In this document: positions 4,070-39,722 of the stretch, in pieces
How the letters are laid out: every line of letters begins with the position of its first letter
How positions within the stretch are numbered: position 1 is the first letter of the stretch
NCBI GenBank assembly: GCA_030601675.1
Contig: JAUWBN010000005.1
Span: forward strand, 848-64,847
Length of the DNA: 64,000 nucleotides
Origin: Hadesarchaea archaeon
Lineage (GTDB): Archaea; Hadarchaeota; Hadarchaeia; Hadarchaeales; Hadarchaeaceae
Reading direction: 5' to 3'
Made by a program: the position numbers and the translations under genes
Notes under the pieces: generated by a model
Told to the model about the DNA's origin: nothing
Database searches by the model: none
Seen by the model: the letters and a program-made list of their open reading frames with translations, nothing else

Positions 4070-5428
4070 ATGATGAGGAAAAGCCGGCCACAGTTAGAAA
4101 AAGGAATTAGCCCAGCGGTTGCGGTAGTGATTGTTATTTCTATTGTTGCAGCTGGCTTAGGAAGCTACTCTATACTCTCTGGTGGAAAAGAACCGGAACC
4201 TATAGCGGACTTGGGTCCAAAAACTAGCGATGTATTTGTGGAACCCTCCGTTTCCACTCTGGACACAAGTGGTGCTACCCCTAGCTCGGTTTCTGAGCTA
4301 GTGCAGGGAGCTAATGAATTTGCTTTTGATATATACTCGAAGCTAGCCGAAGAGGACAAGAACGTGTTTCTTTCCCCATACAGTATTCACACTTGTCTCT
4401 CCATGGTCTATGAGGGTGCCAGAGGAAACACGGCACAAGAAATGAGAAGAGTTCTAAACCTTACTGAAGAAAGCAGCATAAGAAGACCCGCCTTTGCGGA
4501 ATTCCAAAAACAGCTAAACACGAACAGAACAGTAGAACTAAAAACCGCAAATGCACTATGGCCTCAAGAAAATTACCCCTTCTACGAAGAATATCTTGAG
4601 ACCGTCAGAAAGTATTACCTTGCTAGGATAGAAGCGCTGGATTACGTGCATAATGCGAGCGGTGCTGTTGAGAGGATTAACGCATGGGCTGCAGAGCACA
4701 CGGAAAATAAGATAAAAAAGGTGTTAGATTACCTTAGTCCTCTAACGAGACTGGTTCTCACGAATGCGATATACTTCAAGGGAAATTGGTTAATACCCTT
4801 CGACGAGTCCAAGACAGAAAATGAGACATTCTACCTGCCCGATAGTTCTTCGATAGAAACACCAATGATGCAGTTCCACGAAAATAGACTGATAGAAAAT
4901 GGGTTCTACTACGCCGAAACCAGCAATATCAAAGCTCTGAAACTTCTTTATTCTGGAGAAAACGTGTCCATGATATTCTTACTTCCAAAGGATGAGTCAG
5001 GGAGTATCAGCTGGCTCCAAAACAACATCACTAACAGCAAATTTGAAGATATACAGGAAAAATTCGAAAAGAGAAAAATGAGCGAGATCAAAATCCCCAA
5101 GTTTGAATTCAAGACGGAGTATGAAAGTGAATTCAAGAGAGCATTACAAGACCTAGGCATGAACGCTGCTTTTGTTCCTGGAGAGGCTAACTTCTCAGGA
5201 ATGGATGGAACGAAAAATCTTTTCATATCAAAAACAGTGCACAAGGCTTATGTCAAGGTAGACGAGGAAGGGACTGAAGCGGCCGCTGTGACGGCAGTAG
5301 CCATGAAATTAACTGGGTTGCCTGGGCCAAAGCCGACCTTTGTTGCTGACCATCCATTTATGTTCATTATAAAAGATGAAAAAACGGGTGCCATTCTCTT
5401 TATAGGAAGCGTAAGCAATCCCAGTTAA
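4070..5428 (+). CDS. Serpin (serine protease inhibitor) with N-terminal membrane anchor
   Basis: TM segment 'AVAVVIVISIVAAGLG'. Serpin hinge 'EEGTEAAAVTAV'. C-terminal signature 'FVADHPFMFIIKD'. Confidence 0.9.
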   Translation: MMRKSRPQLEKGISPAVAVVIVISIVAAGLGSYSILSGGKEPEPIADLGPKTSDVFVEPSVSTLDTSGATPSSVSELVQGANEFAFDIYSKLAEEDKNVFLSPYSIHTCLSMVYEGARGNTAQEMRRVLNLTEESSIRRPAFAEFQKQLNTNRTVELKTANALWPQENYPFYEEYLETVRKYYLARIEALDYVHNASGAVERINAWAAEHTENKIKKVLDYLSPLTRLVLTNAIYFKGNWLIPFDESKTENETFYLPDSSSIETPMMQFHENRLIENGFYYAETSNIKALKLLYSGENVSMIFLLPKDESGSISWLQNNITNSKFEDIQEKFEKRKMSEIKIPKFEFKTEYESEFKRALQDLGMNAAFVPGEANFSGMDGTKNLFISKTVHKAYVKVDEEGTEAAAVTAVAMKLTGLPGPKPTFVADHPFMFIIKDEKTGAILFIGSVSNPS

Positions 5429-5471: not shown

Positions 5472-5555
5472 CTTCTTCAAGGAGCTGGGGACCTCTTGGT
5501 AACCGGACCCACCGGGACGAATGTCATGGATGTAACATGCTTGATCCTGATTTAA
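5472..5555 (+). pseudogene. Displaced, frameshifted remnant of a glycerate kinase 3' end
   Basis: Reads FFKELG(-1 nt)LLVTGPTGTNVMDVTCLILI*, against the gck end FFKGLGNLLTTGPTRTNVMDIAYLILI* at 3914-3998. Confidence 0.75.
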
Positions 5556-5695
5556 CGCTCCAAGGCTGAAGTTGTTTAAAGCGGTGACGTGATGTCACAG
5601 CTGTGACAGTTAAACCATGTTTCTCCGTAAAGGGAAGCCCGCGGGCACATCAAAATAACTTTCAGCCTTCTTCCAGCTAAACACGTACCGAAAAC

Positions 5696-5865
5696 TTATT
5701 TCTTTAACTTCTCGGCGACCCACCCGACATCGAGTTCTTCTAACTTTGCCTTGGTGGGCACGCCGGTTTCGTCCCAGCCCATCATCTGATAGTACGTGGC
5801 GATCGCCTGCTTGAACTCGTCCTTCGAGAGCTTCGTGCCTTTTAACCCCGCCCCGCCTTCAAAGG
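5696..5865 (-). pseudogene. C-terminal remnant of an aldehyde:ferredoxin oxidoreductase (AOR family) gene
   Basis: '...YYQMMGWDETGVPTKAKLEELDVGW' matches the conserved extreme C-terminus of tungsten AORs. The upstream ~550 codons are absent. Confidence 0.6.
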
Positions 5866-6001
5866 GTTGAAAAAACAAGAGGTAATGTCTTTGACAGTTA
5901 TTAAGTTCGCACTTCTTCAAGAACCTCGTTCATCCTGCAGAACCGTTCGAAATCCTTGATTAAAATATCAGTGCATCCCAATAGGGGATAGGTAGGATAA
6001 C

Positions 6002-6049
6002 TTGAGCAAGAACAAATCGTTCGTCGGCGTGCGGGAGCTGGGGGCTTAG
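6002..6049 (+). pseudogene. Possible 3'-terminal remnant of ribosomal protein S17 (uS17)
   Basis: In-frame '[15 protein letters not shown]' ends 1 nt before rpl14 and resembles the universal S17 motif RPLSKTKSF/W. Stops at 5993 and 5957 truncate it. Confidence 0.4.
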
Positions 6050-6050
6050 T

Positions 6051-6476
6051 ATGGGGAAGAAAGGTATTGGTATTTCGATAGGTGTGGCCGCGGTGGCGCC
6101 GATACGGGCACTGCCGATCGGGGCGCGCCTCATCTGCGCCGACAACACCGGGGCCAAGGAGCTGCAGATCGTGAACGTCGCCGGTTACCATGGCAGGCGC
6201 AGGCGCATGGCCAAGGCCGGTGTGGGTGATCATATCATCGCATCGGTGAAGAGGGGCACGCCCGAGCTTCGAAAACAGATCGTCCGCGCGATCGTCATCC
6301 GGCAGCGCAAGGAGTACCGCCGCACCGACGGCATGCGCATAAAATTTGATGACAACGCGGCCGCCCTGATAACCCCCGAGGGGGCCCCCCGCGGCTCGGA
6401 GATAAAGGGTCCCATGGCCCGCGAGGCTGCCGAGCGGTGGCCGCGAGTCGCTGGGATAGCTTCCACCGTGGTGTGA
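6051..6476 (+). CDS. rpl14: 50S ribosomal protein L14 (uL14)
   Basis: '[14 protein letters not shown]', '[12 protein letters not shown]', 'FDDNAAALI', plus operon position. Confidence 0.95.
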
Positions 6477-19738: not shown

Positions 19739-19826
19739 GCGGGGGTGGCCGAGTCAGGTCAAAGGTGCCAGCTTGAGGGGCTGGTCCCGTAGGGGTTCGC
19801 GGGTTCAAATCCCGTCCCCCGCACCA
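19739..19826 (+). tRNA. tRNA-Leu (anticodon GAG), class II, CCA encoded
   Basis: Acceptor GCGGGGG/CCCCCGC. Anticodon stem CCAGC/GCTGG with loop TTGAGGG. T-loop TTCAAAT. Confidence 0.9.
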
Positions 19827-19831: not shown

Positions 19832-21043
19832 GTAGTTCGATGAACAATCGCACCAAAATGAATCCGAACTCGGTAAACTTAAATTCAATATTAAAAAAAC
19901 AATGTTTGATGAAGAAAGTAGGAATAGGTCTTGCAGGTCTAGGCTTCATGGCTAGGGTTCATTCCAGAGCGTTAAATGGGATACCGGAAGCCAAAATAGT
20001 CGCCGCATGGTCGAAATTTCCCGACGAGCACAATAAGTTCAATGAGTTCAGCAAGAAATTAGGATTCGAAATCGAAACCTATTACACGGACATTAAAAAA
20101 ATGCTTGAAAATCCAAGGGTCGATACGGTCATCTGTGCCATCCCGTCGAGATTCGTTGAGCCCATAGCTAAAGAAATCATCCAAGCCGGGAAACCCGCCC
20201 TCATCGAGTGTCCTCCATGTGATACTCCGGAAAAAATAGACCGCATCGATAAGTTGGCAAAAGAGCGAGGTGTCAAATTGATGCCAGGGCACTGTTATCG
20301 ATTCGCTCCCTGCTTTAAAAAATCAAAAGAGCTCGTTGATAAAGGCGAAATCGGTGGGCCCATATTCGTTCACTTTAGAGAGTTCGTGCCCGCAGAGAGT
20401 CTCGCAAGACAATGGGCGCCCGGATCGTGGATCTGGGATAAGGATAGGGGTGGGCCAATACCAACCATGACGGTGTTTTGCATGGATATGGCACGCTGGC
20501 TTTTGAACTCGGAACCTGTGTCGTTGTACGCAACGATTAAATGGCAAGACCTACCACAATTGGGTATCCTAGGTTACACTGTGGTGAACATGATCAAATT
20601 CGAGAACGAGGTTACATGGGTCAATGAATTCAGCGGCAGCGTTGTACCGTCCATGGGTTCTCCCATGACGATGGAAATCGTTGGTGAAAAGGGGAATGCT
20701 GTAGTGGCAGACGGCCCTGAGAAGGTAATCCTTTACACAGAGAAAAAAGAAGAACAGCAGGTGTGGTCTTTTGACATAACTCGACCCGAGAGATGGGGCC
20801 ACAAACCACAGGACGAATATTTCATCAAATCGGTGATACTCGGGCGCGAGGAACCAATCGTGAAATTACAGGATGCAAAAAAAGCGCTAAAAATGTCGTT
20901 AGCTATTTTGGAATCATCGAAAACTGGCAAGGCGGTCTACTTCGATCAGGTCTAAGTGAAACAATTCTTGCTTAACCCCGCCCGATCCTTGCCCGAAAAT
21001 TATATAAAAAGTTGCGGATTTTTTAAACGGTAGCTTAACTCAC
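19832..21043 (+). mobile_element. Putative remnant of a tRNA-Leu-integrated element (no integrase present)
   Basis: Bounded by a perfect 17-bp direct repeat that includes the tRNA 3' end. The interior is AT-rich (19/60 G+C at line 20041) and has a single cargo gene. Confidence 0.5.
19909..20955 (+). CDS. Gfo/Idh/MocA family NAD(P)-dependent oxidoreductase
   Basis: 'MKKVGIGLAGLGFMARVHSRAL' Rossmann start and 'EKPP-like IECPPC' region, ~349 aa. The ORF-track start at 19840 adds a non-conserved leader. Confidence 0.8.
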   Translation: MKKVGIGLAGLGFMARVHSRALNGIPEAKIVAAWSKFPDEHNKFNEFSKKLGFEIETYYTDIKKMLENPRVDTVICAIPSRFVEPIAKEIIQAGKPALIECPPCDTPEKIDRIDKLAKERGVKLMPGHCYRFAPCFKKSKELVDKGEIGGPIFVHFREFVPAESLARQWAPGSWIWDKDRGGPIPTMTVFCMDMARWLLNSEPVSLYATIKWQDLPQLGILGYTVVNMIKFENEVTWVNEFSGSVVPSMGSPMTMEIVGEKGNAVVADGPEKVILYTEKKEEQQVWSFDITRPERWGHKPQDEYFIKSVILGREEPIVKLQDAKKALKMSLAILESSKTGKAVYFDQV

Positions 21044-25777: not shown

Positions 25778-26013
25778 CGCTCGATGCCGAACTGATTGAA
25801 GAGATCAAGAAGTGGTCCGCTAAACTCGATGGGGCTCTATCAATGGCGAGAGCTCAAAGCGAGCAAGGAAAGGGAATGTTTTTTAATATCAAGGCTTATC
25901 GCAGAGATTCTGAACACTTTCTGAAACAAGGATACCTCATAAAGAGTTTCGAGTGCTTGATTTGGGCATGGAGCCTGCTTGACATCGGCAAGGAGTTAAA
26001 ACAGTTAGAGTAG
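25774..26013 (+). CDS. DUF357-like small helical protein
   Basis: 79 aa. The pattern 'NIKAYRRDSEHFLKQGYLIKSFECLIWAWSLLDIG' resembles DUF357. Overlaps the dphB stop. Confidence 0.6.
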   Translation: MTLDAELIEEIKKWSAKLDGALSMARAQSEQGKGMFFNIKAYRRDSEHFLKQGYLIKSFECLIWAWSLLDIGKELKQLE

Positions 26014-26673
26014 TTATTTCTTAAACAGCTCCCGCACATCGTTCACCACGTCAGCGATTGCACACTCGAGGAGCTTCTCACCCAAAAATTTGTCGATGCG
26101 GATGCCCACCCTCCCAACTTCCCGAGCTTGCTGTTCCGCCCAAGCGTAACGTCTCCGCGCCTCCTTAAGGCCGACGAATCCTACCTCGGGGTAACGCTCG
26201 AAATCGGCGTGCTCGGCGATCTTTGAGGCATCGGCTATCCCTATCACGGCACCCATGCTCAGCTCGCCCGTCGCAGCGTGGGGGCCCTCTAGCTCGATGA
26301 GGGTGTTGTTAAAAACGATGCGTATGCCGAGCTCGCTCTCCAACGCGGGCAACCGCTCCCGCAGAGGTTCATTTCCCCCGTGACCATTGACCAACACCGC
26401 CGCACTGATGCCAAGTGCACGCTTCGCGTTGAGTAGAGCCCTCCGAAGCTCCCCCAAAACCTGCTCGATGCTCTGATGACGCCCCGTGTCTATGCCTGGG
26501 AGCTCATAGGAGAAGGTGAGAACCCCTATGAACTTCACCCTCGTGCGCTTCGCCGCCTCCGAAGCGACGTGTGAGGCCAGCCTTGCATCCGTGTCGGGGG
26601 GGAGGGCTGCTCCGTGTCGCTCCTCGTGCGAGCCCAACGCTAGGATGCCGACCTCGCTCAAATTCAAACTCAC
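26014..26673 (-). CDS. arfB: Creatininase-family amidohydrolase, probably 2-amino-5-formylamino-6-ribosylaminopyrimidinone 5'-phosphate deformylase
   Basis: 'LGSHEERHGAALP', 'LVNGHGGN'. Last gene of the rib operon, overlapping the ribH stop. Confidence 0.7.
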   Translation of the reverse strand: MSLNLSEVGILALGSHEERHGAALPPDTDARLASHVASEAAKRTRVKFIGVLTFSYELPGIDTGRHQSIEQVLGELRRALLNAKRALGISAAVLVNGHGGNEPLRERLPALESELGIRIVFNNTLIELEGPHAATGELSMGAVIGIADASKIAEHADFERYPEVGFVGLKEARRRYAWAEQQAREVGRVGIRIDKFLGEKLLECAIADVVNDVRELFKK

Positions 26674-27083
26674 ACCTTTTCCAAGCGCTTGACGGTCTTC
26701 ACTGCGGCCTCCACCGCGCGCCGGGCGTACTCGTTCACCCGATCCAGTGCCTGCACGCGACTCATGCCGGGCCCAGAGATGCCGAGCGCCACCGGTTTGC
26801 CGTGTTGAACTGCGAGGTCTATTAACTTTCGGCCCGCCTGCTGCATCACTAGCTCATCGTGCTCAGTCTCGCCCTCGATCACTGCTCCAAGCGTAACTAC
26901 CGCATCGATGTCACCACGTTCCACGAGCTTTTTCGCAGCTAGTGGCAGCTCATAAACACCGGGCACCAGAACCTCCGCTACTACCTCTGCCTCGAGAAAA
27001 CTCGCGTGTCGCTTTGCGAACTCAAGCATTGGCCCCACGATATCCCAATGCATTTCTGAAGCAGCGATCCCCAATCTAACCAT
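26670..27083 (-). CDS. ribH: 6,7-dimethyl-8-ribityllumazine synthase
   Basis: 'VPGVYELPLAAKKL', 'DAVVTLGAVIEGETEHDE'. The ATG at 27083 is preceded by GGAGGTG. The ORF-track start at 27167 is rejected. Confidence 0.9.
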   Translation of the reverse strand: MVRLGIAASEMHWDIVGPMLEFAKRHASFLEAEVVAEVLVPGVYELPLAAKKLVERGDIDAVVTLGAVIEGETEHDELVMQQAGRKLIDLAVQHGKPVALGISGPGMSRVQALDRVNEYARRAVEAAVKTVKRLEKV

Positions 27084-28368
27084 CCTTTTCACCTCCTTTT
27101 TCGATTTGCCAACGGAATCCATACAATCCATTGGGCAGTGTGTATCGTGAGAAAGAAATGCCCCCACTCGCTTCTAATCTACGTAAATGTTTCAACAAAG
27201 AGCGTGAATCTCTCCTAAGGATTTTGCTTAGTTCGACGGTTTTCTTTGATCCTTCTGCACGCAGAATGCGCATGATTTCATCCTCAACTTCTTCGCCCCA
27301 TATGCGGTTCTTATAGGAATTGATCGCAACTTCAAGTTTCTTTTGTTTTGTTGGACAGAGACCTATTTGATCAGCAAAAGCTCTCAAATTCCGTTTTCCA
27401 GTTATCCAAAATCCAACTATAACTTTTTTCTGGTCTCTCACCTGATATTTGCGAGATATTCGTACCTTTTTCGATTTTATCCCGAAATCCATCAGCATAC
27501 GTTGAACGGATTCGAGAAACTTTACTAGAGAATCTTTTTTGGAAGCTTCCTTACCCATAAAGATTTTTATGTTGCTGCTTTTGCTCCCGATGTACACTGA
27601 CCCTTCATCATTGAATAGAGCCCGTAAAAAGGATTTTTTTATTTCGGGACTGCCGTCTTTAATCCAACCTGGCATATCAAAATCCTTCTCGGTTTTATTA
27701 CCTCGAACAGCCCCAGCTACACATAAAATTTGACCTATTGTGGCTGGCAACGTTGTCAAATAAATGTCTCGTTCATTTTTTGTTACAAAAATTTGGACAG
27801 TAGAAATGACTTTAACCGCCACAAGAACTTCTTGAATGCACTCAACATTTTTATTTTTGTACTCTACTTGGAAGCGCCTTTCACCTATGCTCCCATCACC
27901 TAAAGCATGGGCAACTAGCGCGGCTAATTGTGGAGTCGAACGAATTGGAATTTTCACGGGTGCGCTCTGTGCCTTCAACACGTAGGCACAATTTTTTTCA
28001 GTTTCTTCCAAAGTTGTTCCGGTAATTGATGCGAGTGCTTTAAGAACAGTAACTGAGATAGACTTTATCTCGCCGTTTCTTAAATCCACCAAGTTCCCAT
28101 AACTACGCGTGATTTTTTCAGCTAGTTTTTTCCACGTTCCAATTTTGTATTTCCCACGCCAAAGTAATTTATCGAGGAAAGGTTTGTTTAAAACAACGCG
28201 GAATTCGCCGGGTAATTCCTTTAGACCTACTCTCACCCAATCCACCGATTCGACCTTTCTTCCCCTTTTTAAACCGCTTTGGAGGAGAGAGGTCGCCGAA
28301 AGTAATTTATAAACCTTATAAAGGGAGTCGTTGGTTGTGTCAACAGTGAAAATACGAGAATTTAACAA
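27076..28368 (-). CDS. Free-standing double-motif LAGLIDADG homing-endonuclease-like protein with N-terminal HTH-like and C-terminal winged-helix regions
   Basis: Motif 1 'LAALVAHALGDGSI' (aa 148-161). Motif 2 'FLRALFNDEGSV' (aa 247-258). C-terminal 'SKKTVELSKILRRDSRSLLKHLRRLEASGGIS'. AT-rich (22/60 G+C at line 27301). TTG start. Confidence 0.8.
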   Translation of the reverse strand: MLNSRIFTVDTTNDSLYKVYKLLSATSLLQSGLKRGRKVESVDWVRVGLKELPGEFRVVLNKPFLDKLLWRGKYKIGTWKKLAEKITRSYGNLVDLRNGEIKSISVTVLKALASITGTTLEETEKNCAYVLKAQSAPVKIPIRSTPQLAALVAHALGDGSIGERRFQVEYKNKNVECIQEVLVAVKVISTVQIFVTKNERDIYLTTLPATIGQILCVAGAVRGNKTEKDFDMPGWIKDGSPEIKKSFLRALFNDEGSVYIGSKSSNIKIFMGKEASKKDSLVKFLESVQRMLMDFGIKSKKVRISRKYQVRDQKKVIVGFWITGKRNLRAFADQIGLCPTKQKKLEVAINSYKNRIWGEEVEDEIMRILRAEGSKKTVELSKILRRDSRSLLKHLRRLEASGGISFSRYTLPNGLYGFRWQIEKGGEKDG

Positions 28369-28374
28369 CGCTTT
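27084..28374 (-). mobile_element. Putative selfish-gene insertion (LAGLIDADG ORF) in the ribC-ribH spacer
   Basis: The compositional break coincides with the ORF boundaries. The flanking genes are adjacent members of one pathway. Confidence 0.5.
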
Positions 28375-29517
<1,143 letters not shown>

Positions 29518-29521
<4 letters not shown>

Positions 29522-30180
29522 ACCATCACCTCCACTTGAACGACATCGCCGTCCTTAAGCTTCAAGCTCTCACGCAGCTTCTTCGGCGCTATGAGCTCAA
29601 CGACATCAGCGTAATGGCTCCGAAGTGGCAAAATCAGGGCAGCTTTCTTATCCTTCAACTTAGCTGGGAAGAATTTCACTGGGCCGAATGTTCGCTCACT
29701 CGTTTTAAAGCTCTCAACCTGCTTGCCGGGAAGCTGAATGAGCACCGCCTTGAGCTCGAGCGATGTCTTGTCAAGCTTGATGTCGAGCGTCCCCGGGTAG
29801 GGATCAAAACCGAGCTCGCGTCCGAACTGCTCGCGGTAGCCCTGCTGGCGCATATAATAACTACCCTCACCCACACCTGAGATCACCCGGCCAGCTAACT
29901 TGAACGAACGCGGTTTCAATCCAAAAATCGCCTCGAGCTCCCGATGCATTAGGCGCAAAGACGCCAAGCCCGCGGGCGTTATACGCACGCGCTGACCGCG
30001 GGGCCCCAGCGTTCGTTTGATCATGCCCTGGCCCTCAAGCTCAAGGAGTCGCCGCGCTGCGGTCTGTCGTGAAACATTTAGTCGACTCGCAAGCCAACTC
30101 AACGAAAGTTTTAGGTCATCGAGATGTGCTCCCTCCTTAGCCAGCGAGACCAGGACCTCGATGGTGGTCTTTCTACCCAA
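29518..30180 (-). CDS. ribK: Winged-helix regulator fused to CTP-dependent riboflavin kinase (RbkR type)
   Basis: N-terminal wHTH 'LASRLNVSRQTAARRLLELEGQGMI'. C-terminal 'GRVISGVGEGSYYM...GFDPYPGTLD' is the archaeal RibK fold. Confidence 0.85.
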
Positions 30181-30300
30181 GCTACCCCCAATCAGAACGA
30201 AACGTGCCGGCTTTTAAGCTTTCTCAAAATTGTGAAGTGTCTAAAAAATGAGACAAACCAAAATCCCAAAAGGCCCGAAATCTCATGGCTGCACGCACTA

Positions 30301-38085: not shown

Positions 38086-38931
38086 ATGAAATTTGCAACG
38101 ATGATCTGGTACGGGGATAGGCCCTTGCGATCAACATTTGAAATGGCACACAGGCTGGGATTTGACTACATCGAATTTTCCTTGGACTACCCCTGGCCCG
38201 ACGAGCTAACGAAGGAAGAGGTAGGGCTGTTGGAGAAACTCAAGGAGGAGTACGGGCTGGGGATAGCGTTTCACGGTCCTTGGGCGGGAACGGTCATCTC
38301 ACACCCCCGGGACGAGATTTCCGATGCGTGCCTTGAAATCTACGAGAAATGTCTAAGATTTGCGGGCAAATTTAATCCGCTGTATTTTAACTTTCACCAA
38401 TCTGGGTACGCCGCAACTTCTGGCTTCGAAGAAATCAGAAAAAGAATTTTTGATAAAGCGCTGGAGACGACCCGTGCGATAGTAAATCTTGGAAGGGGCA
38501 TTCCAATCACGATTGAGAACAATCCGGGTCGCATCTTTGGGCGCGCAAAGGATATCAAGTTTCTCTTAGAAGGTATCAAAGACCTGAACTTTTGCCTTGA
38601 TGTTGGCCATGCCGTTGTATCCAAATGGGAAATCCAACACGTTAAAGGTGGGTCGGGCGAAAAACTGGAAATAGAGGATTGGCTCAACCTCTTTAAAGAT
38701 CGAATTCTGACCGTTCATCTTCACGATTGTTTATTTGAAGGCGACTCGAAACCGAGGGATCACTTTGTCATCGGGAAGGGAAACTTGGATTTTGAAAATA
38801 TTACCAAGGCAATCAAAAAAACAAGTTGCAGGCATGTCCTCTTGGAAACTTACTACACGAAAAAGGGAATCTACCCATCTGAAGAGGATCTCAAAAATAA
38901 CTTAGAATTTTGCAGAGGTTTGATAAAATGA
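38086..38931 (+). CDS. Xylose-isomerase-like TIM-barrel protein (sugar phosphate isomerase/epimerase family)
   Basis: 'GFDYIEFSLDYP', 'ITIENNPG', 'CLDVGHA', 'VHLHD'. AT-rich. Confidence 0.75.
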   Translation: MKFATMIWYGDRPLRSTFEMAHRLGFDYIEFSLDYPWPDELTKEEVGLLEKLKEEYGLGIAFHGPWAGTVISHPRDEISDACLEIYEKCLRFAGKFNPLYFNFHQSGYAATSGFEEIRKRIFDKALETTRAIVNLGRGIPITIENNPGRIFGRAKDIKFLLEGIKDLNFCLDVGHAVVSKWEIQHVKGGSGEKLEIEDWLNLFKDRILTVHLHDCLFEGDSKPRDHFVIGKGNLDFENITKAIKKTSCRHVLLETYYTKKGIYPSEEDLKNNLEFCRGLIK

Positions 38932-39722
38932 AAAGTATACACCATCATTTTTCGAGAATTGCGCGTAAGTATAGAATTTTAAGAACAACTGATTTAGAAC
39001 CGATTCTGTGTATCAAAAAGGAATTACAAAAATTGCCAAAGATTAAAGCAGCAGATGTTGGTTGCGGTGGCGGAAGATATGCTGTAAAATTGTTTCAATG
39101 TCTAGGTGACAGACTTTATCTCCATTGCATCGATGATAATTCCAAAATGTTAAAGCAATTGGACGGGTATTTGGCTCAACATGAAATCAAGAATTTTCAG
39201 ATAAGAGAAGCCTCTGCAGAAGATCTGCCCATAGAAGATGATTCCCTTGATTGTATATTCACTTTTAATGCCGTCCATCATTTCAAACTTTTGGGATTTT
39301 TAGAAGAAGCATCCCGAGTTCTTAAAAATAATGGTTACTTGTTTGTTTACACTCGGTCAAGAAGTCAGAACAGCGAAAATATTTGGGGAAAATATTTTCC
39401 TTTGTTTAACCAAAAAGAGACACGACTTTATGAATTGAATGAATTAAAAGAGATATTGAGAAAAATTTCAAAATTAAAAATACAATCCGTAGAATATTTT
39501 AAATACAAAAGAGTCTCGAGTCTGGACTGGCTTGTCGAGCAGGCACAGAATCATCACTATTCTACATTCAACTTATATACTGAGGAAGAATTTGCGCGAT
39601 CGCTTGATAAATTTAAACAAAATCTTCAGCTACATTTCAAAGATTTAAAAAATATAAAGTGGTTTGATGAAAATATTTTACTAGTTGTAAGAAAACAGAA
39701 GAGAGGGAAAAGAAGAATGTGA
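38928..39722 (+). CDS. Class I SAM-dependent methyltransferase
   Basis: Motif I 'AADVGCGGGRYAV', post-I 'HCIDDN', 'LDCIFTFNAVHHF'. The ATG at 38928 overlaps the upstream stop (ATGA). Very AT-rich (12/60 G+C at line 39421). Confidence 0.8.
   Translation: MKSIHHHFSRIARKYRILRTTDLEPILCIKKELQKLPKIKAADVGCGGGRYAVKLFQCLGDRLYLHCIDDNSKMLKQLDGYLAQHEIKNFQIREASAEDLPIEDDSLDCIFTFNAVHHFKLLGFLEEASRVLKNNGYLFVYTRSRSQNSENIWGKYFPLFNQKETRLYELNELKEILRKISKLKIQSVEYFKYKRVSSLDWLVEQAQNHHYSTFNLYTEEEFARSLDKFKQNLQLHFKDLKNIKWFDENILLVVRKQKRGKRRM

What the first reader, a model, noticed from the sequence alone, without database searches (positions are those of the whole stretch)
27076..28368. Free-standing LAGLIDADG endonuclease-like gene inserted precisely between ribC and ribH
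A 430-aa ORF with two LAGLIDADG blocks ('LAALVAHALGDGSI', 'FLRALFNDEGSV', acidic residues retained) sits inside the riboflavin operon. It also has an N-terminal HTH-like region and a C-terminal winged helix.

Placement: it starts (TTG) 6 nt after the ribC stop and overlaps the ribH start by 8 nt.

Composition: 22/60 G+C at line 27301, against 36/60 at line 26401 in the adjacent arfB gene.

In archaea, LAGLIDADG enzymes are normally intron- or intein-encoded. An intergenic, operon-embedded, HTH-decorated copy suggests one of two things. It may be a phage-style free-standing homing endonuclease that has invaded an operon spacer. Or it may be a domesticated DNA-binding protein co-expressed with the rib genes. 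No intron or intein context is visible.
Basis: partly seen in the sequence, partly recalled or inferred. Interest (0 to 1): 0.7.

Follow-up and report, generated by a model that had tools for sequence, protein, structure and literature searches.

The report
Free-standing archaeal LAGLIDADG homing endonuclease gene
A selfish DNA-cutting-enzyme gene has copied itself into the tiny gap between two vitamin-B2 genes of some Hadarchaeota archaea, bringing neighbouring DNA with it; this is a clean natural example, in a cellular archaeal chromosome, of a spreading mechanism known mainly from phages and organelles.

Summary
A 430-aa ORF lies on the minus strand at 27076-28368, between archaeal ribC and ribH, with a 6-nt spacer and an 8-nt overlap. 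It has about 40% GC against about 60% in the flanks.

The protein has a double LAGLIDADG core with both catalytic acids invariant, an N-terminal HTH and a C-terminal winged helix.

The gene is not vertically conserved:
- All 38 scorable Hadarchaeota species-representative genomes have an empty junction, including a sister genome whose rib proteins are 91-96% identical.
- Ten metagenomic lineages carry X at exactly this site, and they are scattered across the host tree.
- X and host divergences are incongruent.
- X is always AT-rich and intact, with dN/dS of 0.13-0.25.
- Near-isogenic occupied/empty pairs show a clean 1.28-kb insertion with a divergence peak centred on it. Synonymous divergence is 0.45 in ribC and 0.29 in ribH, against 0.10-0.14 in ribK, ribB and arfB.
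- Eight of ten occupied alleles share a flank marker, ribH codon 11 Phe to Met. This residue is the Phe22 equivalent of lumazine synthase.

The best reading is a free-standing homing endonuclease gene spreading by intronless homing. It has duplicated ribH's translation-initiation region so that both genes are expressed. Cleavage itself is inferred, not shown.

I rate it a new variant of a known kind, of moderate interest.

The parts
27076..28368 (-). X, long ORF (430 aa, TTG start). It encodes the free-standing LAGLIDADG endonuclease-like protein.
   Evidence: The frame is kept open from here in 9/10 lineages.
27076..28236 (-). X conserved core (386 aa), from the alternative GTG start at residue 45. 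This is the part shared with the wider stand-alone family.
   Evidence: A start codon (GTG, ATG or TTG) is aligned here in 10/10 lineages, preceded by a GGTGG-like SD. The model is confident from residue 45 onward. Distant relatives begin at profile position about 44. dN/dS is 0.13-0.25.
27964..28200 (-). N-terminal helical HTH-like module (about residues 57-135).
   Evidence: Pfam HTH_26 E=3.8e-4 for residues 73-122. Helices 62-125 are modelled at pLDDT 85-93.
27319..27951 (-). Double LAGLIDADG nuclease core (about residues 140-350). Motif 1 is LAALVAHALGDGSI, with D158 at 27895-27897. Motif 2 is FLRALFNDEGSV, with E255 at 27604-27606.
   Evidence: Pfam LAGLIDADG_3 4.4e-9. NCBIfam matches to intein endonuclease modules over residues 121-387. 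D158 and E255 are invariant. Foldseek matches intein endonuclease domains, I-DmoI, I-Tsp061I and WhiA.
27103..27303 (-). C-terminal winged helix-turn-helix (about residues 356-422).
   Evidence: Pfam MarR 0.017. PDB profile hits to Z-alpha and Lrp/AsnC-type wHTH at E of 0.02-0.04. Foldseek hits to TFE-alpha, MarR and PadR-type wHTH.
28237..28374 (-). Leader, or N-terminal extension: fast-evolving, variable in length between lineages, but kept open in X's frame.
28296..28312 (-). Conserved DNA motif TTATAAATTACTTTCGG, TATA-box-like. It is specific to X elements, is read in different frames in different lineages, and is duplicated in four lineages. It is a candidate internal promoter or operator.
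   Evidence: There is no conserved RNA structure.
28359..28383 (-). Left copy of the 25-nt direct repeat, AGGAGGTaAAAAGcgTTGTTAaATT. It comprises the end of ribC, the stop codon, and the relic of ribH's SD and TTG start, now used as X's start.
   Evidence: D3. Comparison with the empty-site consensus AGGAGGTGAGAAATTGGTGAAGTT.
27073..27097 (-). Right copy of the repeat, AGGAGGTGAAAAGGATGGTTAGATT. It comprises the replacement SD and ATG start of ribH, encoded within X's last codons.
27098..28376 (-). The insertion as defined against the empty sister allele L014 (1279 nt).
27051..27053 (-). ribH codon 11, ATG (Met). It is a marker linked to X and is the equivalent of catalytic Phe22 of B. subtilis lumazine synthase.
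   Evidence: 8/8 clade-A occupied alleles have ATG, against 0/38 empty alleles, which have TTC/TTT or TGG. The reported Fisher p of 1e-7 was computed as 8/10 occupied against 0/38 empty. Alignment to B. subtilis RibH. Role of Phe22.
26800..28875 (-). Approximate extent of the imported, co-converted tract around X: all of ribC, X, and most of ribH.
   Evidence: Divergence from L014 is 8-27% here, against a 2-5% background. pS is 0.45 in ribC and 0.29 in ribH, against 0.10-0.14 in ribK, ribB and arfB.
28375..28851 (-). ribC (archaeal riboflavin synthase), the upstream host gene.
   Evidence: TIGR01506 1.3e-63.
26670..27083 (-). ribH (lumazine synthase), the downstream host gene.
   Evidence: TIGR00114 1.5e-37.

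Best explanation
X is a free-standing LAGLIDADG homing endonuclease gene. It spreads among Hadarchaeota chromosomes by intronless homing into the ribC/ribH junction.

Shown:
- It is a 1.28-kb AT-rich insertion, present in some lineages and absent from their closest relatives.
- It is always at the same site, and it was imported by homologous recombination together with flanking DNA.
- It encodes an intact protein under selection, with a catalytically complete double LAGLIDADG core plus two HTH-type modules.

Inferred mechanism:
1. X is transcribed with the rib operon, and possibly also from an internal TATA-like promoter.
2. It is translated from the captured ribH initiation region (SD in ribC's last codons plus TTG), and/or from an internal GTG.
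3. The protein recognises the X-less junction. The most conserved 22-mer there is AGGAGGTGAGAAATTGGTGAAG. The HTH modules may extend recognition towards ribH codons 9-13.
4. It makes a double-strand break.
5. Repair from an X-bearing allele copies X and a gradient of flanking sequence into the broken chromosome.

Occupied alleles would be immune because both copies of the duplicated site are altered. On the left, the stop and spacer differ. On the right, there is one extra spacer nucleotide, TTG has become ATG and GTG has become GTT. In clade A there is also Phe11 to Met.

The host tolerates the element because the element carries a replacement SD and start for ribH, and X's stop overlaps that start.
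For: - **Domain and fold.** Pfam LAGLIDADG_3 is above its cut-off. NCBIfam matches the endonuclease modules of inteins. The AF2 model has pTM 0.71. It matches TliVMA, PI-PfuI, PI-TkoII and PI-SceI endonuclease domains, I-DmoI and I-Tsp061I.
- **Catalytic residues.** D158 and E255 are invariant in 11 homologues at 47-88% identity.
- **Patchy distribution at one site.** There are 10 occupied lineages. All 38 scorable Hadarchaeota species representatives are empty.
- **Host tree.** Occupied loci are scattered on the arfB tree, each with an empty nearest neighbour.
- **Incongruence.** For WIN-L001, X is 76% identical but arfB 64%, ribK 68% and ribB 70%. For WIN-L004, X is 61% but arfB 82%. For WIN-L149, X is 88% but ribB 64%.
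- **Near-isogenic pairs.** WIN/L014 and L007/L027 are 92-97% identical in DNA around clean 1279- and 1280-nt insertions.
- **Co-conversion gradient.**
- **Shared ribH 5' tract and marker.** The first 45 nt of ribH and the Phe11Met marker are shared across host backgrounds.
- **Composition.** X is AT-rich in all lineages.
- **Integrity.** dN/dS is 0.13-0.25, and all 10 copies are intact.
- **No intron or intein context.**
- **Precedent.** Free-standing HEGs are known to sit between conserved genes and to show flank co-conversion (PMC2988022; PMC13619312).
Against: - No cleavage has been demonstrated. The target site and the immunity changes are inferred.
- All ten copies found are intact. The classical homing cycle also predicts decaying copies, and none was seen.
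- Clade B (L005, L006) lacks the Phe11Met marker. That marker is therefore not required for coexistence with X.
- A route by which X-plus and X-minus DNA would meet in one Hadarchaeota cell is unknown. No viral or plasmid copy was found.
- Sequence-only comparison with solved LAGLIDADG enzymes is not significant. The family link rests on Pfam, NCBIfam and fold similarity.
Confidence: 0.75

Rival explanations
1. X is a domesticated, WhiA-like DNA-binding protein. It would be a regulator of the rib operon, or of its own leader, in which the LAGLIDADG core serves only as a scaffold. It would be retained because it benefits the host.
For: - LAGLIDADG plus a C-terminal HTH is the WhiA architecture, and full-length WhiA (3hyi) is the fourth-best fold match (PMC3384342).
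- X is under purifying selection and intact in all copies.
- A conserved DNA motif in its own leader could be an operator.
- X is co-oriented and translationally linked with the rib genes.
Against: - WhiA lacks the catalytic acids. X keeps both, invariantly.
- X is absent from all 38 scorable species representatives, including the sister genome.
- X has foreign composition, an incongruent phylogeny and an imported flank tract.
- The operon already encodes an RbkR-type wHTH-riboflavin kinase.
Confidence: 0.1
2. X is a once-active endonuclease gene that is now catalytically dead or silent. It would move only passively, as cargo of ordinary homologous recombination between related Hadarchaeota.
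For: - The recombination signatures show import by homologous recombination, but they do not show what initiated it.
- No cleavage data exist.
- No mobile vector was found.
Against: - Strong purifying selection and invariant catalytic residues across 10 lineages at 50-88% identity are hard to explain for a dead gene.
- Repeated arrival at the same site in unrelated host backgrounds, always with a short obligatory ribH tract, suggests a site-specific drive.
Confidence: 0.1
3. X is an ancestral gene of the Hadarchaeota rib operon, inherited vertically and lost many times by precise deletion.
For: X occupies the same position in every lineage that has it.
Against: - It would require dozens of precise losses, each restoring the identical SD-stop-start junction.
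- X and host divergences are incongruent in both directions.
- Flank divergence peaks sharply at X in near-isogenic pairs.
- X keeps a non-host composition.
Confidence: 0.03

Closest known systems
Free-standing homing endonucleases of T4-like phages (Seg and Mob; 'intronless homing')
   Same: A stand-alone endonuclease gene sits in the intergenic gap between conserved genes. It shows presence/absence polymorphism between relatives. It is inherited together with co-converted flanking markers, and it is integrated into host expression signals (PMC2988022).
   Different: Those enzymes are GIY-YIG or HNH and live in phage genomes. They usually cleave hundreds of bp away from their gene. X is a LAGLIDADG enzyme in a cellular archaeal chromosome, and its obligatory flank tract is only about 45-90 nt.
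Archaeal intein- and intron-encoded LAGLIDADG endonucleases (PI-PfuI, PI-TkoII, TliVMA endonuclease domain, I-DmoI, I-Tsp061I)
   Same: [quoted passage not shown] These are the best sequence and fold matches.
   Different: X has no Hint splicing blocks and no intron. It has its own initiation signals, plus an N-terminal HTH and a C-terminal wHTH in place of intein DNA-recognition regions.
WhiA/DUF199 (domesticated LAGLIDADG plus C-terminal HTH regulator of Gram-positive bacteria)
   Same: [quoted passage not shown] It is a high-ranking fold match over 305 columns.
   Different: WhiA has lost the catalytic acids and lysines and is universally, vertically conserved. X keeps the acids and is sporadic and mobile.
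Mitochondrial free-standing or gene-fused homing endonuclease ORFs that bring a replacement gene end (for example the Allomyces atp6 element; recalled from memory, not checked here)
   Same: The mobile unit carries a duplicate of the host gene's terminus. The host gene therefore stays functional, and the displaced original end is left as a relic next to the endonuclease ORF.
   Different: In X the duplicated piece is only the 25-nt translation-initiation region at the 5' end of ribH. The relic has been recruited as X's own start. The host is an archaeal chromosome.
The wider stand-alone 'LAGLIDADG family homing endonuclease' proteins of archaeal metagenomes (for example Aenigmarchaeota MDI6825753.1)
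   Same: The same HTH, double LAGLIDADG and wHTH layout. There are 95 clusters at E<1e-30 and 657 at E<1e-10. Sampled members are lower in GC than their flanks and sit next to housekeeping genes.
   Different: They are only 24-34% identical to X and sit at other loci. None has been characterised, and they carry generic names only. The X subfamily is a separate branch found only at ribC/ribH: 734 bits, then a gap to 250 bits.

Membership tests
LAGLIDADG homing endonuclease (structural family) | Two LAGLIDADG helices, each ending in a conserved acidic residue that binds catalytic metal | tested here: met
   LGD158GS and FND-E255-GS are invariant in 11 homologues. Helices 146-156 and 241-252 end just before these residues in the model.
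LAGLIDADG homing endonuclease (structural family) | Curated profile match | tested here: met
   PF14528 LAGLIDADG_3 scores 36.9 bits against a cut-off of 22.5. The match covers only the second half-domain. NCBIfam matches intein endonuclease modules over residues 121-387.
LAGLIDADG homing endonuclease (structural family) | [quoted passage not shown] | tested here: met
   Foldseek probability is 1.0 to 7qsu, 2cw7, 1dq3, 2dch and I-DmoI (target TM-score 0.6-0.69). Sequence-only PDB searches and hhalign against I-DmoI were not significant.
LAGLIDADG homing endonuclease (structural family) | Site-specific double-strand cleavage of a 14-40 bp target | not testable with these tools
   Needs biochemistry. 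The predicted substrate is the empty junction AGGAGGTGAGAAATTGGTGAAG plus flanks.
Free-standing homing endonuclease gene (intronless homing) | Not embedded in an intron or intein; sits between intact host genes | tested here: met
   No Hint or intein domains. No Rfam family, including group I introns, at E<=1. ribC and ribH are complete on either side.
Free-standing homing endonuclease gene (intronless homing) | Presence/absence polymorphism at one homologous site among close relatives | tested here: met
   10 occupied lineages against 38 empty species representatives. The occupied/empty pairs WIN/L014 and L007/L027 are 92-97% identical in DNA.
Free-standing homing endonuclease gene (intronless homing) | Horizontal spread: element phylogeny incongruent with the host | tested here: met
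   Pairwise identities and pS values are incongruent in both directions. Occupied loci are scattered in the arfB tree. These are NJ and pairwise analyses only, with no bootstrap.
Free-standing homing endonuclease gene (intronless homing) | Co-conversion of flanking host markers | tested here: met
   A divergence peak is centred on X. pS is 0.45 in ribC and 0.29 in ribH, against 0.10-0.14 in distal genes. The first 45 nt of ribH and the Phe11Met marker are shared across host backgrounds.
Free-standing homing endonuclease gene (intronless homing) | The endonuclease cleaves the element-less allele, and the element-bearing allele is resistant | not testable with these tools
   Inferred only, from sequence differences between the duplicated site copies and the empty consensus.
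WhiA/DUF199-type domesticated LAGLIDADG regulator | [quoted passage not shown] | tested here: not met
   D158 and E255 are invariant. The WhiA criterion is taken from PMC3384342.
WhiA/DUF199-type domesticated LAGLIDADG regulator | Universal vertical conservation in the host lineage | tested here: not met
   X is absent from all 38 scorable Hadarchaeota species representatives.
Intein | In-frame insertion in a host protein, with N- and C-terminal Hint splicing blocks | tested here: not met
   ribC ends with a stop codon before X. There is no Hint or Intein_splicing hit. Matches to intein-containing proteins cover only their endonuclease modules.
Transposon / insertion sequence | Transposase or integrase, and terminal inverted repeats | tested here: not met
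   The insert holds only X. There are no terminal inverted repeats. The only bracketing repeat is the 25-nt direct duplicate of the host initiation region.

The most novel reading that the evidence does not exclude
X may be a bifunctional element that is more integrated with its host than a simple parasite.
- It has captured ribH's translation-initiation region for itself and supplies a replacement copy for ribH.
- It carries a conserved, sometimes duplicated DNA motif in its own leader. One of its HTH modules may bind that motif, which would give autoregulation or control of downstream ribH-arfB expression.
- It drags a substitution at a catalytic-site residue of lumazine synthase (the Phe22 equivalent, changed to Met) through Hadarchaeota populations, as its immunity mark.

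On this reading it would be a living intermediate between an invasive LAGLIDADG nuclease and a WhiA-type regulator. It would also be a case of a selfish gene reshaping the active site of a core metabolic enzyme.
Probability: 0.2. Interest if true: 0.75.

Novelty: new variant of a known kind. Interest (0 to 1): 0.55.

Why it matters
Homing endonucleases in archaea are known almost entirely from inteins and rRNA or tRNA introns. Intronless homing of free-standing genes has been worked out in T-even phages, with GIY-YIG and HNH enzymes. This locus offers a natural, sequence-resolved case of the same process for a LAGLIDADG enzyme in a cellular archaeal chromosome. It shows occupied and empty alleles, a co-conversion gradient, a candidate 22-46 bp target, and candidate immunity changes.

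Three consequences follow:
- It gives a directly testable substrate-enzyme pair from an uncultured phylum.
- It suggests that the large, uncharacterised family of HTH-LAGLIDADG-wHTH proteins in archaeal metagenomes are free-standing homing genes, each tied to a housekeeping locus.
- It is indirect evidence for ongoing DNA exchange and homologous recombination between divergent Hadarchaeota lineages.

The three-module architecture may also interest meganuclease engineers.

Tried and rejected
- **Short gene model.** I first concluded that the real gene starts at residue 45 and that the leader is non-coding. I revised this after finding that the long frame is open in 9/10 lineages, far more than chance allows. 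Both starts remain possible.
- **Leader as a long decayed duplicate of the ribH 5' end, which would place the true insertion point inside ribH near codon 14.** An nhmmer profile of empty sites found nothing beyond the SD region. Only the 25-nt duplicate is supported.
- **Structured RNA, riboswitch or group I intron in or around X.** There were no Rfam hits even at E<=1. The leader has no consensus structure.
- **Viral or plasmid vector.** No relatives were found in IMG/VR contigs, GenBank phages or PLSDB plasmids.
- **Sequence-level link to solved LAGLIDADG structures.** phmmer, hmmsearch and hhalign were not significant, apart from weak wHTH hits. Only the fold search links them.
- **Defence-system role.** PADLOC returned only a sub-threshold Csa3-like wHTH hit. 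PHROGs returned one family of unknown function.
- **Transposon.** There are no terminal inverted repeats and no transposase.
- **Other X copies in the window.** None was found.
Full report
**1. The observation**

The window holds a minus-strand operon: ribK (an RbkR-type wHTH-riboflavin kinase), ribB, ribC, X, ribH and arfB.

X is the 430-aa ORF at 27076..28368. Its TTG start lies 6 nt after the ribC stop. Its stop overlaps the ribH ATG by 8 nt. The two quoted motifs are present, and Pfam LAGLIDADG_3 is above its gathering score.

X has 40.4% GC, against 58-62% in the adjacent genes. Only about 1% of equal-sized windows in the region are as AT-rich.

**2. What the protein is**

- NCBIfam aligns residues 121-387 to the endonuclease modules of intein-containing RtcB, GyrA, RFC and DnaB. 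It finds no splicing domains.
- An AlphaFold model built on 11 homologues has pLDDT 78.8 and pTM 0.71. It is confident from residue 45 to 425 and disordered for residues 1-44.
- Foldseek against the PDB returns TliVMA, PI-TkoII, PI-PfuI and PI-SceI endonuclease domains, I-Tsp061I and I-DmoI. It also returns full-length WhiA. The C-terminal 65-80 residues separately match winged-helix proteins (TFE-alpha, MarR and PadR types).
- The N-terminal module gives a weak Cro/C1-type HTH hit.
- In the family alignment both metal-binding acids (D158 and E255) are invariant, together with many lysines.
- Sequence-only searches against solved structures do not reach LAGLIDADG enzymes. Assignment to the family therefore rests on Pfam, NCBIfam and fold similarity.

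**3. Distribution**

Only 11 close homologues exist among 5.8 billion proteins. Every one whose flanks are visible lies between ribC and ribH. Additional occupied loci came from a metagenome scan. Together they form ten distinct lineages.

A scan of one genome per GTDB species with ribC identified the host as Hadarchaeota. It returned 39 Hadarchaeota rib loci. One contig ends within ribC. All 38 scorable loci have ribC followed directly by ribH, and none has an X-like sequence within 4 kb.

The empty junction is almost invariant...AGG AGG TGA GAAA TTG GTG AAG TT... Here ribC's last codons plus its stop form ribH's Shine-Dalgarno.

X is therefore sporadic, not vertically conserved. It keeps 39-42% GC in every lineage, while the flanks are 48-63%.

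**4. Evidence for horizontal spread by homologous recombination**

(a) Incongruent identities.

| Pair | X identity | Host-gene identity |
|---|---|---|
| WIN-L001 | 76% | arfB 64%, ribK 68%, ribB 70% |
| WIN-L004 | 61% | arfB 82% |
| WIN-L149 | 88% | ribB 64% (83 aa aligned) |

(b) Host tree. In an arfB neighbour-joining tree the occupied loci are scattered. Each has an empty nearest neighbour: WIN with L014, L007 with L027, and L004 with L008 and L018.

(c) Near-isogenic pairs. WIN/L014 and L007/L027 are 92-97% identical in DNA on both sides of clean 1279- and 1280-nt insertions.

(d) Divergence gradient. Synonymous divergence between WIN and L014 is 0.10-0.14 in ribK, ribB and arfB. It is 0.45 in ribC and 0.29 in ribH. 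Between WIN and L149 it rises with distance from X: X 0.19, ribH 5' 0.24, ribC 0.44, ribB 0.56. Sliding windows show a divergence peak centred on X. Divergence is 8-27% across ribC and 27-35% in the first 60 nt of ribH, against a 2-5% background.

(e) Shared flank tract. In the first 45 nt of ribH, all eight clade-A occupied alleles are closest to another occupied allele. Beyond about 45-90 nt the nearest neighbour is again the host's empty-site relatives.

(f) Fixed marker. The only fixed differences there change codon 11 from TTC/TTT (Phe, or TGG Trp) to ATG (Met). The count is 8/8 clade-A occupied against 0/38 empty alleles. The Fisher p of 1e-7 was computed as 8/10 occupied against 0/38 empty. 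This residue aligns with Phe22 of B. subtilis lumazine synthase (using a B. subtilis sequence recalled from memory). Phe22 is listed among the conserved catalytic residues (PMC12871164).

These are the signatures described for homing with flank co-conversion (PMC2988022).

**5. Is the gene functional?**

All ten copies are intact, at 384-388 aa from the conserved start. dN/dS is 0.13-0.25. No decayed copy was seen.

**6. Anatomy of the insertion**

A 25-nt imperfect direct repeat brackets the insert (D3). The left copy is AGGAGGTaAAAAGcgTTGTTAaATT. The right copy is AGGAGGTGAAAAGGATGGTTAGATT. Both resemble the empty consensus AGGAGGTGAGAAATTGGTGAAGTT, which is also the most conserved 22-mer of the empty locus.

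So the element duplicates ribH's translation-initiation region. The left copy now begins X's long ORF. The right copy, encoded in X's last codons, serves ribH. In most lineages X's stop codon is formed from ribH codons 2-3 (GTT AAR or AGA), which explains the GTG to GTT difference.

The left copy decays in other lineages, with ribC's C-terminus changing from RR* to RG*, RE* or RGA*. This fits loss of its former SD role.

**7. Start codon and leader**

The first 44 codons evolve almost neutrally (omega 0.6-0.9) and are predicted disordered. A start codon with a GGTGG-like SD is conserved at residue 45 in 10/10 lineages. Distant relatives begin at that point.

However, X's frame is open all the way back to the ribC stop in 9/10 lineages, including leaders that are about 100 nt longer. 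The other two frames carry stops. Shuffle probabilities are 0.006-0.12 per lineage. L006 is the exception and must use the internal start.

I therefore keep both starts. The long form uses the captured ribH initiation region, and the core can be made on its own.

The leader also holds a conserved DNA motif, (T)TTATA(A/T)ATTACTTTCGGYGMCC (28296-28312). It is read in different frames in different lineages and is present twice in four lineages. It is absent elsewhere in the window. It shows no conserved RNA structure. It looks like an archaeal TATA box followed by a conserved segment, so it may be an internal promoter or an operator. This remains unexplained.

**8. Wider family**

An exhaustive profile search shows the X subfamily as an isolated branch: 734 bits, then a drop to 250 bits. 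Behind it lie 95 clusters at E<1e-30 and 657 at E<1e-10. These are mostly 300-450-aa stand-alone proteins covering the same three modules.

Sampled relatives (24-34% identity) are stand-alone ORFs, often lower in GC than their flanks. They sit next to RNase P p30, Hjc, tRNA-splicing endonuclease or AlaRS genes. Databases call them only 'LAGLIDADG family homing endonuclease' or 'intein/homing endonuclease'.

It does not hold for what metagenomes contain.

**9. Mechanism**

The best-supported reading is a free-standing homing endonuclease gene practising intronless homing.

Shown:
- a foreign insertion at one site;
- import by recombination with a flank gradient;
- an intact and catalytically complete protein;
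- preserved expression signals for both X and ribH.

Inferred:
- X cleaves the empty junction. The junction 22-mer is the prime candidate target. With two extra DNA-binding modules, the footprint could reach ribH codons 9-13.
- The altered site copies make occupied alleles immune.
- Repair copies X into the cut chromosome.

The consistent retention of ribH nt 1-33 from the donor, with reversion to host sequence after about 45-90 nt in four independent backgrounds, would fit a break close to, or just inside, the start of ribH. I cannot separate the two target models. How donor and recipient DNA meet in these uncultured archaea is unknown. No viral or plasmid copy was found.

**10. Comparison and novelty**

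In mechanism, X works like the Seg and Mob genes of T-even phages. In fold, it is a LAGLIDADG enzyme closest to archaeal intein modules. In architecture, it resembles WhiA but keeps the catalytic residues that WhiA has lost.

Full-text searches of the held library returned no paper describing a free-standing LAGLIDADG homing gene in an archaeal chromosomal operon, and none for Hadarchaeota. I did not read all the returned papers.

I rate it a new variant of a known kind. It is a solid, well-resolved case rather than a new principle. Interest is 0.55.

Noticed in passing
window 28296-28312 (-); second copies in L004, L150 and L006 leaders: A conserved DNA motif, TTATA(A/T)ATTACTTTCGGYG, sits inside X's leader. 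It is read in different frames in different lineages, and it is duplicated about 100-110 nt apart in the long leaders. It has no RNA structure and is not found elsewhere in the window. It may be an internal archaeal promoter or an operator.
   Followed up: partly
window 27051-27053 (-), ribH codon 11: The X-linked ribH alleles carry Met where all 38 empty alleles have Phe or Trp. The position is equivalent to catalytic Phe22 of B. subtilis lumazine synthase. The selfish element may therefore be spreading a changed active-site residue.
   Followed up: partly
L047:4475-5230 (Methanophagales, same ribC-ribH junction): A different insertion of about 0.8 kb sits between ribC and ribH. It holds two small ORFs, one DUF2283 (9.7e-12) and one weakly PBECR2/RelE-like (5e-4), so it resembles a toxin-antitoxin pair. 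This operon junction seems permissive for small mobile modules.
   Followed up: partly
window 4070-5428 (+): A low-GC island (about 42-43% GC) encodes a 452-aa serpin (PF00079, 2e-113) with an N-terminal hydrophobic segment. It is probably horizontally acquired.
   Followed up: partly
window 38086-39722 (+): This is the most AT-rich island of the window, with a minimum of about 37% GC. It encodes a xylose-isomerase-like TIM-barrel protein and a class I SAM methyltransferase. It looks like another foreign insertion.
   Followed up: partly
window 19840-20955 (+): A Gfo/Idh/MocA-family oxidoreductase gene with lowered GC (about 47%) lies directly after a tRNA gene at 19739-19823. This may be a tRNA-adjacent acquisition.
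   Followed up: no
L014 about 1468-2593 and 5537-6393, compared with window about 30255-30271 and 25997-26026: The otherwise 92-97% identical sister genome L014 has about 1.1 kb of extra DNA upstream of ribK and about 0.86 kb extra after arfB. These are further indels between close relatives around this operon.
   Followed up: no
L096, L104, L111, L112, L114 and L120 (X-like ORFs): Distant stand-alone relatives of X are AT-rich relative to their flanks. They abut housekeeping genes: RNase P p30, Hjc, tRNA-splicing endonuclease and AlaRS, the last overlapping by 14 nt in L120. This suggests a whole family of locus-specific free-standing homing genes in archaea.
   Followed up: partly
contigs L005, L088, L090, L149 and L150 (1.6-2.2 kb): Apart from the window's own 65.7-kb contig, the X-bearing contigs are short (1.6-6.6 kb). 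These five end inside ribB/ribC and ribH. That is what assembly-graph branching at a presence/absence polymorphism within a population would produce. It could also explain why no species-representative MAG carries X.
   Followed up: no
window 29518-30180 (-): The operon's first gene is a fusion of a winged-helix domain and a CTP-dependent riboflavin kinase (PRK14165, 8e-64). The operon therefore already has its own RbkR-type DNA-binding regulator.
   Followed up: no
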